The notes under the pieces were generated by a model. It was given only the letters and a program-made list of their open reading frames with translations. It was not told where the DNA came from and made no database searches. From Candidatus Latescibacterota bacterium (lineage in GTDB: Bacteria > Latescibacterota > UBA2968 > UBA8231), in contig CBDFJF010000002.1 in the NCBI GenBank assembly GCA_965248265.1, positions 3,360,001 through 3,424,000 on the forward strand: a stretch of 64,000 nucleotides of DNA, written 5' to 3'. The position numbers were made by a program, and so were the translations under genes. Every line of letters starts with the position of its first letter. The first letter of the stretch is position 1. This document shows positions 60,574-63,703 of this stretch, one piece after another.

Positions 60574-60608
60574 AACGATCTTATTAGCTCTTTCAACGTC
60601 TTTTCGGA

Positions 60609-60647
60609 GCGGGAGTAGTTCAGGGGTAGAACGCAAGCTTCCCAAGC
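60609..60647 (+). pseudogene. 5' half of tRNA-Gly(CCC), truncated; probable att site
   Basis: GCGGGAGTAGTTCAGGGGTAGAACGCAAGCTTCCCAAGC, after which the sequence diverges; no T-arm follows. Confidence 0.85.
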
Positions 60648-61198
60648 CGCACGTTTTGTCGCGCTAACTCTCTGAACCTCAGTAAGTTAACGCCACCCTG
60701 CCGGATCCCGCCTCCCAAATTGCTCCCGGAAATTTAATCTATAAAGGATTGTCCCACCTGTGGGACAAGTTTAAACAATTTGCGCTGTGTGCCCCACAAA
60801 CGAGAACCAGCCGGTTTTTTCGTTGAAATTCGCCCCTCGCTGACGTATCTTGCCCCACAAGTTAGCTTGCAGCCATAGGTCTCGGGCTACCATAGCCCGT
60901 AGTCAATAAGCCCTAAGCCATTGTGTCACATGGGCTTGTCCGGTATCAACTGTGGGGCGTCCTCCAAATCCCTCCCTGCAGGAGGGGGTGCCGCATCTGG
61001 GACGCATGCAATTATGTAAAGATGTATGCGTCCATGTGCGCTAGTCATCTCCCCCACCAACACCACCAGCAACAACCGACACGCCACCAGGACAACGCCT
61101 ATGCCGTTTACCCAGCCTCAAGCACTCTCATCGTCCTCGCATTGGTTGCGCACCCAGGCATACCCACAACACCCATTGCCACTATTTTCAGATACTTG

Positions 61199-61227
61199 TT
61201 GTCCATGACATATTGTCATCCTATATT
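61199..61227 (+). promoter_or_regulatory. Promoter with an internal palindromic operator
   Basis: TTGTCC-N17-TATATT; the spacer contains ATGACA-TAT-TGTCAT (61205-61219). Confidence 0.75.
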
Positions 61228-61286
61228 AAGTGACAGTCACGGGGCACACTGCCCCTGGCTACTCACTCACACTCGGAAGGTGAACC

Positions 61287-61451
61287 ATGGTAACCAAGCT
61301 CAAGATCAGTAGGCCCAAACAGGGAACCAGGCTCAAGAAGGTGGAATGTGAATCATGCGGGTACACGGCACGCGTTACCAAGGTCTGGCTGGAGATGTTG
61401 GGACCGCCACTGTGCCCATGCAATCGCAAGGCAATGACGGTAGTCGATTAG
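61287..61451 (+). CDS. 54-aa zinc-ribbon protein (like the C-terminus of phage SprT-like proteins)
   Basis: Hand-translated MVTKLKISRPKQGTRLKKVECESCGYTARVTKVWLEMLGPPLCPCNRKAMTVVD*; GGAAGG SD. Confidence 0.75.
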   Translation: MVTKLKISRPKQGTRLKKVECESCGYTARVTKVWLEMLGPPLCPCNRKAMTVVD

Positions 61452-61524
61452 CAAGCGTTCGTTAACACCAGGGGCTTGGTGCCCCTGGTGCACTCACTCA
61501 CTCACCAGAAGGAGCATCACAACC

Positions 61525-61767
61525 ATGACAACGCAAGCAAGGCAGCGACAATTCGAGAAAGAATGGGCAGCCCGTCCCTGGCATTCTGTAGCGTGCCACA
61601 CAGGCAGCGAAGCGGATGCGGCTCGCATTATAGCCCGTCAACGGGGGGTGTGCTTCCAGGCCGTGAATCTGGCTCACCAGGAGCACACCTTGATACTGGT
61701 TGACTGCCCGTCAACGGCACGTGTTGTACGTACCTGGATACGCAAGGAGCGCAAGCTGAACAGATAG
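61525..61767 (+). CDS. Small hypothetical protein (80 aa)
   Basis: AAGGAG SD and the repeated leader motif. Confidence 0.7.
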   Translation: MTTQARQRQFEKEWAARPWHSVACHTGSEADAARIIARQRGVCFQAVNLAHQEHTLILVDCPSTARVVRTWIRKERKLNR

Positions 61768-61857
61768 GCAACACCAGGGGCGAGGGTGTTGACGTTTGGC
61801 ACCCCCCCCTAAGTCCCCCCCCTCACTCACTCACTCACTCAAATCTGGAGGTCAGCA

Positions 61858-62367
61858 ATGAGCGCATACGTAGTAGAACGAGATCACATCCGCTATATGG
61901 TCGAGGCCGCTGTATCAGGCACGTACCACAGTGGCGGGTTACGCTGGGTCACGGGGTCACGGGTCGAGGGCACGGCACAGTGCCACACTCTTGACCAGGG
62001 TGACCTGGAGCACGCTGCGCGGATCGGGCAAATGCTATGGGATGAAAACGTCAAGAGCGTTTGCTATAGGTACGATGAACCCGCCGACTCAACCGACTTG
62101 CCCGGCCCGGTAGGCGAAACCTATACCTACGAGGTGCACCCGCTCACCAGCAGCACGGTAGACCCGCTGGCCGTGTTCCAGGTGCTCAGTTGCTACGAGT
62201 ACCAGACGTGCGAGCACCCTGGATGGAACGACAGCGAAGCCTATACAATCGTCCAGGCGATCAAAGACAAGATGATTCGGCGTATCAGCGATGATGCACC
62301 GGGTTGGGGCGACGTGCCCAAGCTGCAGCCGTTCACGGGCATATCGCTATCCTCACTCATCAGATAA
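61858..62367 (+). CDS. Phage/plasmid-type hypothetical protein (169 aa)
   Basis: GGAGG SD; conserved-looking GQMLWDENVKSV..RY and CYEYQTCEHPGW..SEA blocks. Confidence 0.85.
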   Translation: MSAYVVERDHIRYMVEAAVSGTYHSGGLRWVTGSRVEGTAQCHTLDQGDLEHAARIGQMLWDENVKSVCYRYDEPADSTDLPGPVGETYTYEVHPLTSSTVDPLAVFQVLSCYEYQTCEHPGWNDSEAYTIVQAIKDKMIRRISDDAPGWGDVPKLQPFTGISLSSLIR

Positions 62368-62379
62368 CTGGAGGGAATC

Positions 62380-62616
62380 ATGGGAGTTCGTTCAAGCGCA
62401 TGGACGGGCGAATCACTCCGTGCGTTTCGGGAATCATTCAAAAGCACGCGCAAGCCCAAGGGACGGGGGCGCTTTCGTCCTCACCTGTCGCGTGCTGAGT
62501 TCGCCAAGCGGCTGGAGATCACAGAGCGCACCCTGGCCCGTTGGGAAAACGGAGAAACCGCTATACCGGCAGTTGCTCAACAGCTGCTCACCGTGATGCG
62601 CTCGCGTCAACGGTAG
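62380..62616 (+). CDS. XRE-family HTH regulator (Aca-like position)
   Basis: LSRAEFAKRLEITERTLARWENGETAIP; GGAGG SD. Confidence 0.85.
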   Translation: MGVRSSAWTGESLRAFRESFKSTRKPKGRGRFRPHLSRAEFAKRLEITERTLARWENGETAIPAVAQQLLTVMRSRQR

Positions 62617-63058
62617 CCCGTCGGCGCTTCCTCTTACCCGTGCCCGGTGTCGTCCGCAAGCTGGCGGCGCTGGGCACGATGGCTTTGCGCATAAACTTGC
62701 GTACCTGTCGCATCCGCTTCGGATTGCCCAGCAACTCAGCGAAACGCTCAGCATCCAGGCCCAACGCGTCATGCCAGACCGTCTGTGTGGTCAAGAAGGT
62801 CGCCGGATCTGGCTGAGTCACTATGGGCACCAGGCGATCGAGGCCGTTACCAGCTCGGCACTTAATCCCTACCCGCTTCCACTCTCCAGACAATACTCGT
62901 CCATTGCGCCGCCTCACCTGAGCAGAGGCTATACGTACCCGGTCCGCCGCCGCTGAGTGCCACACAAACCAATGTGAAATAGCCGTGTTCAGCACCCCGC
63001 AGGCCAATCGCCTATACCCTGCCATGTCGTCCAAATCCCTATACCCCCGTGTTTGCAT
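62588..63058 (-). CDS. Phage-like hypothetical basic protein
   Basis: 156-aa ORF convergent with the HTH gene. Confidence 0.6.
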   Translation of the reverse strand: MQTRGYRDLDDMAGYRRLACGVLNTAISHWFVWHSAAADRVRIASAQVRRRNGRVLSGEWKRVGIKCRAGNGLDRLVPIVTQPDPATFLTTQTVWHDALGLDAERFAELLGNPKRMRQVRKFMRKAIVPSAASLRTTPGTGKRKRRRATVDASASR

Positions 63059-63174
63059 TTTAGTGTATATTCACCAGTAGGTCGGTGGGAGCACCGACCT
63101 ACACCACCCTCCAGGTGGTGAGTGAGTGCCCCCGTTGACCCCTGGTTGACGGGGGTCTACTCATACCTACCACA

Positions 63175-63212
63175 AAGGGCGGCCCCCATTCAGGGAACCG
63201 CCCTCTTCGTTT
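63175..63212. terminator. GC-rich hairpin, possibly a bidirectional terminator
   Basis: AGGGCGG...CCGCCCT flanked by AAA and by CTTCGTTTT. Confidence 0.5.
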
Positions 63213-63703
63213 TAGGAACCGCAGGCGCATGACTATATCGCGGGTGAGCCCTCCAATCGGCCCACGACACGCGTAGCGGTCAAGCCTGCGCTACAGGGCG
63301 CACGAACGCCCGCCCTTTGATATACCACCGGTCGGGTGGTGGCAACGCTCCCACGCTGCACCCTCTCGGGCTTCAGGACGGACAAAAGCTGCCCCATCCT
63401 CCAGGACGCTTACCGGCTGTACGCCACTCCTTTTACCATCGGTCGGGTAACGTTTAAACGATACCACATTCCGCAAGAAAAGTCCACAACTTTCTGCGCC
63501 CCAGCAGCTTACTCAATTTCTGGTTCATAGCAATGCGCTATGCTATGCCACTGTGCGCCATGAGTGGATTGTTGGTTCTGTGGTGGGGCAAAATCCAACT
63601 ATTTTGCCTGTATGCCCCACAAACTAAAATCCGGTCATTTTTCGCTTGCGGCGGGGTGTTTAAATGGCTTTCTTGCTATTCACTGGAGGGTGGTTTAAAC
63701 GGT

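What the first reader, a model, noticed from the sequence alone, without database searches (positions are those of the whole stretch)
61199..62616. Candidate anti-defence (acr-aca-like) operon at the island end
Seen: a near-consensus promoter (TTGTCC-N17-TATATT) whose spacer holds a perfect ATGACA-N3-TGTCAT inverted repeat. It is followed by three small unknown genes (54-aa zinc ribbon, 80 aa, 169 aa) and a terminal 78-aa XRE HTH gene. Known: anti-CRISPR operons typically have a strong promoter, small acr genes and a last aca HTH gene that autorepresses through promoter inverted repeats. Inference: the three ORFs are candidate new anti-CRISPR, anti-restriction or host-takeover proteins. Nothing here shows their activity.
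Basis: partly seen in the sequence, partly recalled or inferred. Interest (0 to 1): 0.8.

Follow-up and report, generated by a model that had tools for sequence, protein, structure and literature searches.

The report
Self-regulated accessory operon at prophage end
A four-gene operon with its own promoter and a likely self-repressing regulator sits at one end of an integrated phage, and its largest gene belongs to a large, unnamed family typical of the early or first-entering regions of phages and plasmids, so it is a reasonable but unproven counter-defence candidate.

Summary
The promoter TTGTCC-17-TATATT (61199-61227) carries a perfect ATGACA-TAT-TGTCAT palindrome in its spacer, followed by ORFs of 54, 80, 169 and 78 aa. 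The 78-aa protein is an XRE-type helix-turn-helix (HTH) protein.

The operon lies about 550 bp inside attL of a 42.75-kb prophage integrated in tRNA-Gly(CCC). Most of that prophage lies beyond the window.

- **169-aa protein:** it belongs to a large unnamed family (7,524 cluster representatives) with no Pfam, NCBIfam, PHROG or PADLOC match. Its confident model (pLDDT 89) has no PDB match. Homologs sit in plasmid leading-region-like gene arrays and phage early regions. Some are fused to ArdC-N, LPD29 or DUF3846.
- **54-aa protein:** it is the zinc ribbon of SprT-like proteins without the protease domain.
- **80-aa protein:** it is an ORFan.
- **HTH protein:** it fits no known Aca family.
- **Host:** no Cas1 and no CRISPR array were found.

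Verdict: this is an acr-aca-like, burst-then-shut-off architecture carrying an establishment or counter-defence-type cargo. An anti-CRISPR role in particular is unlikely, and no activity has been shown. Interest is moderate.

The parts
60606..60647 (+). attL. It is a 42-nt copy of the 5' part of tRNA-Gly(CCC). The 12-nt identical core AGCTTCCCAAGC lies at 60636-60647.
   Evidence: It aligns with window-equivalent 103361-103402 in the intact tRNA-Gly(CCC) at 103364-103438. Contigs of 4 runs from one sample break here.
60648..61198 (.). Non-coding prophage arm between attL and the operon promoter. It carries repeated TG[CT]CCCACAA / GTGGGACAA motifs and a 60-nt element (60760-60819) that recurs at 63583-63642.
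   Evidence: It holds no ORF with homologs. Three of the 16 genome-wide plus-strand motif copies lie at 60790, 60851 and 63613. A role as integrase arm sites or operators is inferred.
61199..61227 (+). Sigma-70-type promoter TTGTCC-17-TATATT.
   Evidence: 9 of 12 matches.
61205..61219 (.). Perfect palindrome ATGACA-TAT-TGTCAT in the promoter spacer. It is the candidate operator of the 78-aa HTH protein.
   Evidence: There are 2 exact copies in 7.32 Mb against about 0.16 expected, and one in the prophage. Binding is not tested.
61230..61240 (.). Second palindrome GTGAC-A-GTCAC at the expected transcript start.
   Evidence: Read. It forms part of the predicted 5' UTR stem.
61241..61286 (+). Leader module 1: a GC hairpin, an ACTCACTCAC run and a Shine-Dalgarno site before the 54-aa gene.
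   Evidence: (D12).
61287..61451 (+). 54-aa basic zinc-ribbon protein. It is a stand-alone copy of the C-terminal ribbon of SprT-like zincins.
   Evidence: phrog_6361 matches at E 4.9e-9 to profile positions 156-199 of 203. tblastn hits 9 of 80 viral loci. In five of the six loci examined the ribbon is the C-terminus of 190-220-aa HExxH proteins; the one scanned (L080) matches Pfam SprT-like at 2.4e-6. No protease remnant lies upstream.
61468..61524 (+). Leader module 2: hairpin CCAGGGGC/GCCCCTGG, a (CACT)3 run and GAAGGAG.
   Evidence: (z -2.98).
61525..61767 (+). 80-aa basic ORFan (pI 10.7).
   Evidence: Only the protein itself was found among 5.8 billion proteins. No relative was found in viral contigs. 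It has no family hit. The single-sequence model has pLDDT 56. Whether it is a real gene rests on the leader module and its place in the operon.
61776..61857 (+). Leader module 3: a GC stem, a C-run, a (CACT)5 run and GGAGG.
   Evidence: CACTCACTCACTCA occurs only at this locus in the genome.
61858..62367 (+). 169-aa acidic protein (pI 4.8). It is a member of a large unnamed family of mobile elements.
62380..62616 (+). 78-aa XRE-type HTH protein with a basic N-terminal 30 residues. It is the candidate autorepressor.
   Evidence: Pfam HTH_3 is above its cut-off. phrog_2104 matches at 2.7e-6. The MqsA-type HTH model matches at 1.2e-6, below its cut-off. One homolog was found, at 71% identity.
62639..62678 (+). 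16-bp GC-rich hairpin 23 nt after the HTH stop codon, with a weak U tail. It may be a terminator or an RNA-end stabiliser.
   Evidence: -39 kcal/mol for the 89-nt stretch, z -1.8.
62588..63058 (-). Convergent 156-aa ORF that overlaps the HTH gene's 3' end by 29 nt. Whether it is a real gene is uncertain.
   Evidence: It has no family hit and no relative in viral contigs. Its base composition is not decisive.
63077..63155 (-). Fourth copy of the hairpin-CACTCACTCAC-GGAGG module, on the minus strand, followed by a 10-bp hairpin. It lies upstream of the 156-aa ORF.
   Evidence: I2, I6; z -3.84, 0 of 200 shuffles fold as well. The GGAGG is followed by GTG GTG TAG, so no ORF starts there.
63176..63213 (+). 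Intrinsic-terminator-like hairpin with the tail CUCUUCGUUUU on the plus strand.
   Evidence: z -3.03, 0 of 200 shuffles fold as well. The scan did not list it.

Best explanation
This is an accessory operon of a temperate phage, placed just inside attL. In the circular phage it lies across attP from the integrase gene.

**Proposed mechanism**
1. When phage DNA enters a cell that holds no repressor, the sigma-70 promoter at 61199-61227 fires.
2. The four cistrons are translated. The first three each follow a hairpin-(CACT)n-Shine-Dalgarno leader.
3. The last product, the 78-aa XRE HTH protein, accumulates and binds as a dimer to the ATGACA-TAT-TGTCAT palindrome between the -35 and -10 boxes. It may also bind the GTGAC-A-GTCAC site at +1.
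4. This shuts the operon off, giving a burst-then-shut-off circuit.

**Proposed cargo**
- The main cargo is the acidic 169-aa protein. It belongs to a widespread unnamed family that mobile elements carry in regions expressed first after entry. It most likely helps establishment by neutralising a host barrier. Restriction or another DNA-directed defence is more likely than CRISPR-Cas.
- The 54-aa SprT-type zinc ribbon and the basic 80-aa ORFan are likely nucleic-acid-binding helpers.

**Shown:** the anatomy, the prophage context, the family membership and its gene company.
**Inferred:** repression by the HTH protein, the timing of expression and any counter-defence activity.
For: **Anatomy**
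- The promoter and palindromes are present.
- The four ORFs are co-directional, each preceded by a Shine-Dalgarno site, and the HTH gene comes last.

**Prophage context**
- Tyrosine integrase, Pfam E 1.1e-33.
- ERF recombinase.
- Terminase, portal and major head protein.
- attL/attR in tRNA-Gly(CCC).

**The 169-aa family**
- The profile search found 7,524 representatives at E <= 1e-3.
- 170 relatives were found in viral contigs.
- 74 plasmid records hold a homolog: 32 conjugative and 26 mobilizable.
- An IncP, MOBF conjugative Pseudomonas plasmid carries it in an array with DUF4942, a C5-methyltransferase, RecX and ssb.
- An IncN-type plasmid carries it after ssb, an ArdK-family regulator and CcgAII.
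- Mycobacterial plasmids carry it near MobF, DUF932 and DUF4192.
- In three linear actinobacterial plasmids it lies about 2 kb from a terminus.
- A 131-kb phage carries it 5.4 kb from the genome end, with DUF932 and DUF3846 nearby.
- Four of 10 longer members scanned are fused to other domains: ArdC-N (with a weak M78 match), LPD29, and DUF3846 twice.
- Among 210 immediate same-strand neighbours of homologs, the hits were SSB 4, ArdcN 1, MPTase-PolyVal 1, LPD29 1, DUF3846 1, DUF932 1, RadC 1 and MT-A70 1.
- The 54-aa ribbon, within or beside SprT-like genes, lies near family members in 9 of 80 viral loci.

**Literature**
- Leading regions are anti-defence islands rich in uncharacterised families (PMC11541004, passages).
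- Solo forms of polyvalent-protein domains are proposed to ease early invasion (PMC5512222, passage of section 29).
- An autoregulated repressor gives a transient burst of establishment genes in plasmid p576 (PMC6294495, abstract).
- Aca proteins repress acr promoters, and LPD29 genes occur in aca4 operons (PMC13551039, abstract and section 23).
Against: - No protein of the operon matches a known anti-defence family in Pfam, PHROGs or NCBIfam.
- The family's link to anti-defence is by neighbourhood and fusion only. Most neighbours are unknown: few of the 102 downstream and 108 upstream neighbours match any Pfam family (13 and 17 families in all, most in one or two members each).
- Many neighbours are replication or recombination genes (SSB, DnaN, RecT, RusA, DNA polymerase). 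This fits a DNA-metabolism role equally well.
- The HTH protein fits no Aca family and has just one homolog.
- No homolog of the 169-aa protein has an HTH gene directly downstream (0 of 102). The regulatory design is therefore local and cannot be checked by comparison.
- The host shows no Cas1 and no CRISPR array (genome 92% complete).
- A position next to att is also typical of genes expressed from the prophage.
- A convergent ORF (62588-63058) and a terminator only at 63176-63213 leave the transcript's 3' end unclear.
Confidence: 0.4

Rival explanations
1. The operon is a prophage 'moron'. It would be expressed from the lysogen and benefit the host or exclude other phages (lysogenic conversion, superinfection exclusion or a new defence module). 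The HTH protein would be its local regulator.
For: - It lies at the very end of the prophage next to attL, with its own promoter and terminator-like hairpins.
- The cargo is of unknown function.
- The palindrome is unique within the prophage, so the operon is not wired to a multi-operator phage repressor.
Against: - No PADLOC defence model matches the three cargo proteins.
- The 169-aa family is found mainly in plasmid leading-type arrays and phage early regions, fused to ArdC-N, LPD29 or DUF3846. This points to the invader's side of the conflict.
Confidence: 0.18
2. The operon is an early DNA-metabolism or establishment helper that is not a defence inhibitor. The 169-aa protein would act with SSB, the sliding clamp or recombinases on incoming or replicating DNA, for example by modulating repair or the SOS response. 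The zinc ribbon would bind DNA.
For: - Neighbours of homologs include SSB (4 of 210 immediate neighbours), DnaN (2), RecT, RusA, DNA polymerase A, RecX and umuDC.
- In this prophage an ERF recombinase follows 2 kb downstream.
- Nearly invariant polar residues (E63, S67, R71, Y72, Y115, Q116, C118, E119) suggest a defined active or binding site.
Against: - There is no similarity to any known DNA-metabolism fold or family.
- The fusions found are with conflict-type domains rather than replication domains.
Confidence: 0.15
3. The small basic proteins next to attP (the 78-aa HTH, the 80-aa ORFan or the 54-aa zinc ribbon) form the phage's excision-directionality and switch module, in the manner of Cox or Apl. 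They would bind the att arm and repress a promoter at the same time.
For: - The operon is about 550 bp from the att core, and in the circular phage it faces int.
- No excisionase family was found in the 4 small ORFs beside int that were scanned.
- The proteins are strongly basic: pI 9.7, 10.7 and 11.9.
- A weak PHROG match exists to 'excisionase and transcriptional regulator' (phrog_9834, E 0.12).
- Repeated motifs fill the arm.
Against: - The PHROG match is not significant.
- The palindrome is not repeated in the arm.
- This reading leaves the conserved 169-aa cargo unexplained.
Confidence: 0.1
4. The 169-aa protein and the HTH protein form a toxin-antitoxin or abortive-infection pair with the toxin gene first, as in higBA or mqsRA.
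For: - The gene order fits and the gap between the two genes is only 12 nt.
- The HTH protein's nearest solved relatives are HigA-2 antitoxins (E 0.03-0.08).
- It also matches an MqsA-type HTH model (E 1.2e-6, below cut-off).
- It has a basic, probably disordered N-terminus.
Against: - None of 102 homologs has an HTH gene directly downstream.
- None of 108 has one directly upstream.
- The family is acidic and usually stands alone in arrays of small genes.
- No toxin family matches.
Confidence: 0.07
5. The pattern is chance. The promoter-like site and palindrome would be fortuitous, and some of the small ORFs (especially the 80-aa one) would not be genes.
For: - The promoter scores only 9 of 12, and five other such sites occur in 3.6 kb.
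- The 80-aa ORF has no homolog and its composition is not decisive.
Against: - The palindrome is rare: 2 copies in 7.3 Mb.
- It sits exactly in the spacer, 60 nt before the first of four co-directional ORFs, and follows a 550-bp gene-free arm.
- Three of the four ORFs have homologs.
- The same leader module precedes three cistrons.
Confidence: 0.05

Closest known systems
acr-aca operons of phages and other mobile elements (Aca1, Aca2 and related HTH repressors)
   Same: - There is a promoter at the head of a short operon of small genes, with an HTH gene last and an inverted repeat inside the promoter.
- The 5' UTR is structured. Aca1 and Aca2 also bind RNA motifs in the 5' UTR (PMC13551039, abstract).
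- Aca-regulated operons carry other anti-defence cargo, including LPD29 (PMC13551039, section 23). The 169-aa family is fused to LPD29 in one protein.
   Different: - The HTH protein is not a member of a known Aca family.
- No known acr gene is present.
- The host shows no CRISPR-Cas.
- Here the cargo is the conserved part and the regulator is the rare part, which is the reverse of the usual acr-aca pattern.
Repressor-controlled establishment genes of conjugative plasmids (Reg576 of p576; the ArdK/CUP regulon of IncN plasmids)
   Same: - An autoregulated repressor gives a transient burst of establishment or anti-restriction genes after entry (PMC6294495, abstract; PMC5027574, passage on ArdK-binding sites in the CUP operons).
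- A homolog of the 169-aa protein lies in an IncN-type array next to an ArdK-family regulator, CcgAII and ssb.
   Different: - This element is a phage, not a plasmid.
- It has one promoter with one palindrome, not several operators.
- The regulator is an XRE-type HTH protein, whereas Reg576 is ribbon-helix-helix.
- I did not check whether the IncN homolog is itself under CUP/ArdK control.
Anti-defence islands of plasmid leading regions
   Same: The 169-aa family occurs on 74 plasmid records, 58 of them conjugative or mobilizable. It sits in arrays with ssb, methyltransferases, DUF932, DUF3846 and relaxase genes. This is the kind of company described for leading regions (PMC11541004, passages).
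   Different: - No single-stranded-DNA promoter logic applies to a double-stranded DNA phage.
- The paper's tables of uncharacterised families are in extended data and supplements that I could not see, so I cannot say whether this family is already listed there.
Solo versions of polyvalent-protein domains (LPDs; Iyer et al. 2017)
   Same: The family is found both fused in multidomain proteins (with ArdC-N, LPD29 or DUF3846) and alone in phage and conjugative contexts. This matches the description of LPDs (PMC5512222, section 29 passage).
   Different: It matches none of the Pfam LPD models, nor any other Pfam model.
SprT-like zincin proteins of phages and plasmids (PF10263)
   Same: The 54-aa protein aligns with their C-terminal CxxC...CxC zinc ribbon at 42-51% identity over 37-45 residues.
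   Different: The HExxH protease domain is absent and no remnant lies upstream.

Membership tests
acr-aca operon | At least one gene is a known or homologous anti-CRISPR. | tested here: not met
   The 54-, 80- and 169-aa proteins have no significant family hits in Pfam or NCBIfam, and in PHROGs only an unknown-function family for the 54-aa protein. Dedicated anti-defence databases (dbAPIS, the anti-defence add-on of DefenseFinder) were not on hand.
acr-aca operon | The regulator belongs to a described Aca family. | tested here: not met
   Pfam Aca2_YdiL gives E 0.1 and 13.2 bits against a cut-off of 23.8. No Aca chain appears among PDB sequences at E <= 1; the best hit is HigA-2 at 0.032. Aca families without a Pfam model or a solved structure could not be compared.
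acr-aca operon | The HTH gene lies in the same operon, downstream of small genes, with an inverted repeat in the promoter. | tested here: met
   Searches show the sequence anatomy. Binding was not tested.
acr-aca operon | There is a CRISPR-Cas system to inhibit in the host. | tested here: not met
   No Cas1 was found (the control search found it in 7 of 14 genomes). My own k-mer scan found no CRISPR-like array. The genome is 92% complete, and the phage may have other hosts.
XRE / Cro-C1 HTH (PF01381) | The Pfam score is above the gathering cut-off. | tested here: met
   28.1 bits against a cut-off of 23, E 2.1e-6, residues 36-62.
Leading-region / establishment gene family of conjugative elements | Homologs recur in arrays with ssb, anti-restriction regulators, methyltransferases and a relaxase on conjugative or mobilizable plasmids. 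| tested here: met
   74 plasmid records hold a homolog, 58 of them conjugative or mobilizable. Of the 8 plasmid contexts read, 4 showed such markers within 7 kb. Three were near termini of linear plasmids. One showed nothing telling.
Leading-region / establishment gene family of conjugative elements | There is a demonstrated effect on establishment or defence evasion. | not testable with these tools
   This needs conjugation and plaque assays.
Polyvalent-protein-associated domain (LPD) | The domain occurs as one module of multidomain conflict proteins and also as a solo gene. | tested here: met
   Four of 10 longer members carry ArdcN (E 4.2e-12), LPD29 (8.7e-25) or DUF3846 (3e-7 and 1.1e-7). 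Six of 10 had no second Pfam domain.
Polyvalent-protein-associated domain (LPD) | The protein matches one of the named LPD models. | tested here: not met
   No Pfam family matches at E <= 1.
SprT-like zincin (PF10263), for the 54-aa protein | An HExxH metalloprotease domain is present. | tested here: not met
   Only the C-terminal ribbon aligns. No upstream remnant is found by tblastn.
Type II toxin-antitoxin pair (HigBA / MqsRA-like) | The toxin family is conservedly paired with an adjacent antitoxin gene. | tested here: not met
   None of 102 downstream and none of 108 upstream same-strand neighbours of homologs match an HTH family at E <= 1e-3.
Temperate phage integrated in a tRNA gene | The element has an integrase, virion and recombination genes, and flanking direct repeats formed by a partial tRNA copy. 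| tested here: met

The most novel reading that the evidence does not exclude
The 169-aa protein would represent a large family (thousands of clusters) with a new fold, used by phages, conjugative plasmids and linear plasmids across many phyla to disarm a DNA-directed host defence on entry. In this phage it would be driven by a new Aca-like XRE repressor. It would also be tuned at the RNA level by a repeated hairpin-(CACU)n-SD leader before each cistron, which could be a second target of the regulator, as for Aca2.
Probability: 0.25. Interest if true: 0.75.

Novelty: new member of a known kind. Interest (0 to 1): 0.5.

Why it matters
If the reading holds, the operon gives a simple test case for a very common but unnamed family of mobile-element proteins. 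That family shares neighbourhoods with ArdC, LPD29, DUF3846, DUF932 and ssb. Homologs sit on well-studied laboratory plasmids: an IncP, MOBF Pseudomonas plasmid and IncN-type plasmids, so function could be tested quickly. A positive result would add a new anti-defence or establishment family with a new fold. It would also extend the 'burst then self-repression' logic of acr-aca operons to another regulator type. If the reading fails, the locus is an ordinary accessory cassette at a prophage end.

Tried and rejected
**Fold and structure searches**
- The 169-aa model had no PDB match at E <= 0.001; the best was E 1.5.
- A profile of 134 family members against PDB sequences gave nothing below E 1.3.
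- BFVD returned only uncharacterised viral proteins, 2 of them at E <= 0.001.
- The ESM Atlas gave no usable hit for the 169-aa or the 80-aa protein.
- The single-sequence model of the 80-aa protein had pLDDT 56, too poor for a fold search.
- The 54-aa protein gave nothing against PDB sequences.

**Complex prediction**
- The 169-aa and HTH proteins gave 'no answer' (score 0.20 against a mark of 0.32). This is not evidence either way.

**Search for related operons**
- No relatives of the 80-aa or the 156-aa ORF were found in viral contigs.
- The HTH protein had 3 weak viral relatives at 38-44% identity. I did not examine them further.
- tblastn with the 54-aa, 80-aa, HTH and 156-aa proteins found nothing in 64 genome loci.
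- A DNA search of 60 related genomes gave only two matches of about 33 nt.
- A pattern search for the leader module in viral contigs gave 4 single-copy, chance-like matches.

**Expression and reads**
- No RNA holder was listed.
- The laid contigs (4 runs, one sample) break at attL, and the prophage contigs have higher mean depth than the chromosomal flank in some runs. Contig depth is not a copy number, so I draw nothing from it.

**Other points**
- I considered whether homologs sit near contig ends in viral contigs. From the table the share within 6 kb of an end did not clearly exceed chance, so I dropped the idea.
- Base composition did not settle whether the 80-aa and 156-aa ORFs are real genes.
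- Literature searches for four homolog accessions found 0 papers.
- Supplements were closed, so the lists of uncharacterised families in PMC11541004 and PMC13551039 could not be checked.


Full report
**1. The observation**

- TTGTCC lies at 61199-61204, followed by a 17-nt spacer and TATATT at 61222-61227.
- Inside the spacer is a perfect ATGACA-TAT-TGTCAT palindrome at 61205-61219.
- I also see a second palindrome, GTGAC-A-GTCAC, at 61230-61240. That is where transcription should start.

The consensus scan lists the promoter with 9 of 12 matches, so 'near-consensus' is generous. It is one of 6 promoter-like sites in 3.6 kb, against 1.6 +/- 1.5 in shuffles.

The palindrome is the stronger signal. 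It has 2 exact copies in the 7.32-Mb genome against about 0.16 expected from composition, and only this one lies in the prophage.

The four ORFs are as stated: 61287-61451 (54 aa), 61525-61767 (80 aa), 61858-62367 (169 aa) and 62380-62616 (78 aa). Each follows a GGAGG-like Shine-Dalgarno site.

**2. Where it sits**

The window is G000:C2:3360001-3424000. Reading on beyond the window shows a prophage.
- Recombination and other genes: an ERF recombinase and an SPFH protein.
- Virion genes: large terminase, portal and major head protein.
- A 424-aa tyrosine integrase at window-equivalent 102026-103300 on the minus strand, Pfam E 1.1e-33.

Next to the integrase lies an intact tRNA-Gly(CCC) at 103364-103438. 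A 42-nt copy of its 5' part lies at 60606-60647, just after miaA. The two copies share an identical 12-nt core, AGCTTCCCAAGC, over the anticodon loop.

The element is therefore a 42,755-bp prophage and the operon starts about 550 bp inside attL. In the circular phage, the operon and int face away from each other across attP.

**3. The 169-aa protein**

It has no match in Pfam, PHROGs, NCBIfam or PADLOC.

*Family size and conservation*
- A word-based search found 21 relatives at 32-47% identity, all unnamed.
- A profile of these found 7,524 cluster representatives at E <= 1e-3, and 945 at E <= 1e-30.
- Family members start with MSAYVV. Nearly invariant polar residues are E63, S67, R71, Y72, Y115, Q116, C118 and E119.
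- The family is acidic, with a median pI of 5.2.

*Structure*
- The AlphaFold model is confident (pLDDT 89.3, pTM 0.80). It has four long helices and a beta-hairpin.
- It has no PDB match (best E 1.5) and no match to PDB sequences by profile.
- In BFVD it matches only uncharacterised viral proteins.

*Distribution*
- 170 relatives were found in viral contigs from just two peptide patterns.
- 64 loci were found in genomes of many phyla.
- One cultured phage carries a homolog.
- 74 plasmid records carry one: 32 conjugative, 26 mobilizable and 16 non-mobilizable.

**4. The company the family keeps**

I read nine annotated contexts.

| Context | Neighbours or position |
|---|---|
| IncP, MOBF conjugative Pseudomonas plasmid | DUF4942, a C5-methyltransferase, RecX, ssb |
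| IncN-type plasmid | follows ssb, an ArdK-family regulator and CcgAII; a SprT-like gene lies nearby |
| Two mycobacterial plasmids | arrays with DUF932, DUF4192 and DUF3560, leading up to MobF relaxase |
| Three linear actinobacterial plasmids | about 2 kb from a terminus; two have Lsr2 and one has DUF3846 nearby |
| 131-kb Mesorhizobium phage | 5.4 kb from the genome end, with DUF932 and DUF3846 |
| One megaplasmid | nothing telling |

The IncN-type gene occurs on 93 plasmids, 90 of them conjugative. It is labelled 'hypothetical protein' on 27 of the 30 rows listed; the other 3 records have no annotation.

Of 10 longer family members scanned, 4 were fused to other domains:
- ArdC-N, with a weak M78 peptidase match.
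- LPD29.
- DUF3846, twice.

The other 6 had no second Pfam domain.

Among the immediate same-strand neighbours of 119 non-redundant homologs, most have no Pfam match.
- The 102 downstream neighbours gave SSB 1, ArdcN 1, MPTase-PolyVal 1 and integrase 2. No HTH family was found.
- The 108 upstream neighbours gave SSB 3, DnaN 2, and one each of DUF932, RadC, LPD29, MT-A70, DUF2958, DUF3846 and a type I specificity subunit. Again no HTH family was found.
- Representatives of 144 recurrent neighbour clusters in viral loci also included Mom, RecT, RusA and DNA polymerase A.

This is the gene set of leading or early-entry regions. It mixes anti-restriction genes with DNA-metabolism genes, so the link to counter-defence is real but indirect.

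**5. The other three proteins**

*The 54-aa protein (pI 9.7)*
- It matches the last 44 positions of phrog_6361 at E 4.9e-9.
- It aligns with the C-terminal CxxC...CxC ribbon of 190-220-aa phage proteins that carry an HExxH motif; the one scanned matches Pfam SprT-like.
- Such ribbons lie 1-1.5 kb upstream of a 169-aa homolog in 8 viral loci and directly downstream in one. That makes 9 of 80 loci.
- Here the protease domain is absent and no remnant lies upstream.

*The 80-aa protein (pI 10.7)*
- It is an ORFan. Only the protein itself was found among 5.8 billion proteins, and nothing was found in viral contigs.
- No usable model was obtained.

*The 78-aa protein*
- It is an XRE HTH protein: HTH_3 at 28.1 bits against a cut-off of 23.
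- It has a basic N-terminal 30 residues.
- Its best other matches are phrog_2104, an MqsA-type HTH model below cut-off, and HigA-2 antitoxins and the 434 repressor among solved structures (E 0.03-0.2).
- Aca2_YdiL scores E 0.1, below its cut-off.
- It has a single homolog, at 71% identity. I could not read that homolog's contig.

**6. Transcript anatomy**

The first three cistrons are each preceded by the same kind of leader. It consists of a GC hairpin (consensus CCAGGGGC...GCCCCTGG), a run of CACT repeats and a GGAGG-type site. The 14-mer CACTCACTCACTCA occurs nowhere else in the genome.

A fourth copy lies on the minus strand at 63077-63155. It sits in a very stable 111-nt structure (z -3.84), upstream of a convergent 156-aa ORF (62588-63058) of uncertain reality.

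After the HTH stop codon there is a 16-bp hairpin at 62639-62678. A better terminator-like hairpin with a U-rich tail lies at 63176-63213.

Structured 5' UTRs are now known to be second targets of Aca1 and Aca2 (PMC13551039, abstract). Whether these hairpins serve that purpose, RNA stability or translation is open.

**7. How it most likely works**

The best-supported reading is a burst-then-shut-off circuit.
1. The promoter is free when the DNA enters a cell.
2. The HTH protein is made last.
3. It then occupies the palindrome between the -35 and -10 boxes.

The same logic is documented for acr-aca operons (PMC6765145 and PMC9410906, search listings; PMC13551039, abstract and section 23). It is also documented for establishment genes of plasmids (Reg576: PMC6294495, abstract; ArdK/CUP: PMC5027574, passage).

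The cargo is an establishment-type protein family whose members travel with anti-restriction modules. An anti-CRISPR role in this host is unlikely. No Cas1 was found and no array was found by my own scan, in a genome that is 92% complete.

I put 0.40 on the whole chain: a real operon, autorepression, and a counter-defence or establishment cargo. The rivals are:
- a lysogen-expressed moron (0.18);
- a DNA-metabolism helper (0.15);
- an excision-directionality and switch module (0.10);
- a toxin-antitoxin pair (0.07), weakened by 0 of 102 and 0 of 108 HTH neighbours;
- chance (0.05).

**8. Novelty and limits**

The architecture is a new member of a known kind. The 169-aa family appears unnamed. 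It has no model in four libraries and no paper holds any of four homolog accessions. However, the lists of uncharacterised leading-region and Aca-regulated families sit in extended data and supplements that I could not open, so the family may already be catalogued there.

Nothing here shows activity. The operon's combination of genes is unique among everything searched, so comparative footprinting of the operator was impossible.

Noticed in passing
window 60606-60647 and L003:3361-3438 (window-equivalent 103361-103438): The prophage is integrated in tRNA-Gly(CCC) with its crossover core over the anticodon loop. The left partial copy differs from the intact gene at 5 of 42 positions, including a compensatory pair in the D-stem. 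One 5' half is therefore phage-borne and the other host-borne.
   Followed up: partly
window 60749-60866 and 63570-63642: A 60-nt element (70% identical) and the motif TG[CT]CCCACAA / GTGGGRCAA recur on both sides of the operon. Three of the 16 genome-wide plus-strand copies lie at 60790, 60851 and 63613. The right-hand copy lies upstream of a 262-aa HTH gene (start 63704). These may be integrase arm sites or operators of a phage-wide regulator, which would place the operon under a second control.
   Followed up: partly
window 63077-63155 (-) and 62588-63058 (-): A fourth hairpin-CACTCACTCAC-GGAGG module on the minus strand is followed by only a two-codon frame and a perfect 10-bp hairpin. The 111-nt stretch folds far better than shuffles (z -3.84). 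It could be a small RNA, or the long leader of the convergent 156-aa ORF that overlaps the HTH gene's 3' end.
   Followed up: partly
L003:2026-3300 (-) and window 60648-61198: The integrase gene starts only about 60 bp from the tRNA at attR and is transcribed away from it. In the circular phage its upstream region is therefore the 550-bp left arm, where minus-strand promoter-like sites lie at 60949-60920 and 60596-60569. Integration may separate int from its promoter. This is inference only.
   Followed up: no
L001:7691-7762: The prophage carries its own tRNA-Ser(TGA) among the early genes.
   Followed up: no
L001:14931-16007 (-): A minus-strand block in the prophage's early region encodes a LuxR/GerE-type regulator (127 aa) and a 230-aa protein with transposase-type HTH domains. 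No excisionase family was found in the 4 small ORFs beside int that were scanned.
   Followed up: partly
window 60603-60900, runs X1-X4: A 10.3-kb contig in two of the four runs joins other sequence to 60606-60900 with 5 differences. A related phage, or another junction form of this one, may be present in the same sample.
   Followed up: no
plasmid records NC_022599.1, NC_009806.1, NZ_CP088079.1: In three linear actinobacterial plasmids the 169-aa homolog lies about 2 kb from a terminus, heading an array of small unknown genes.
   Followed up: partly
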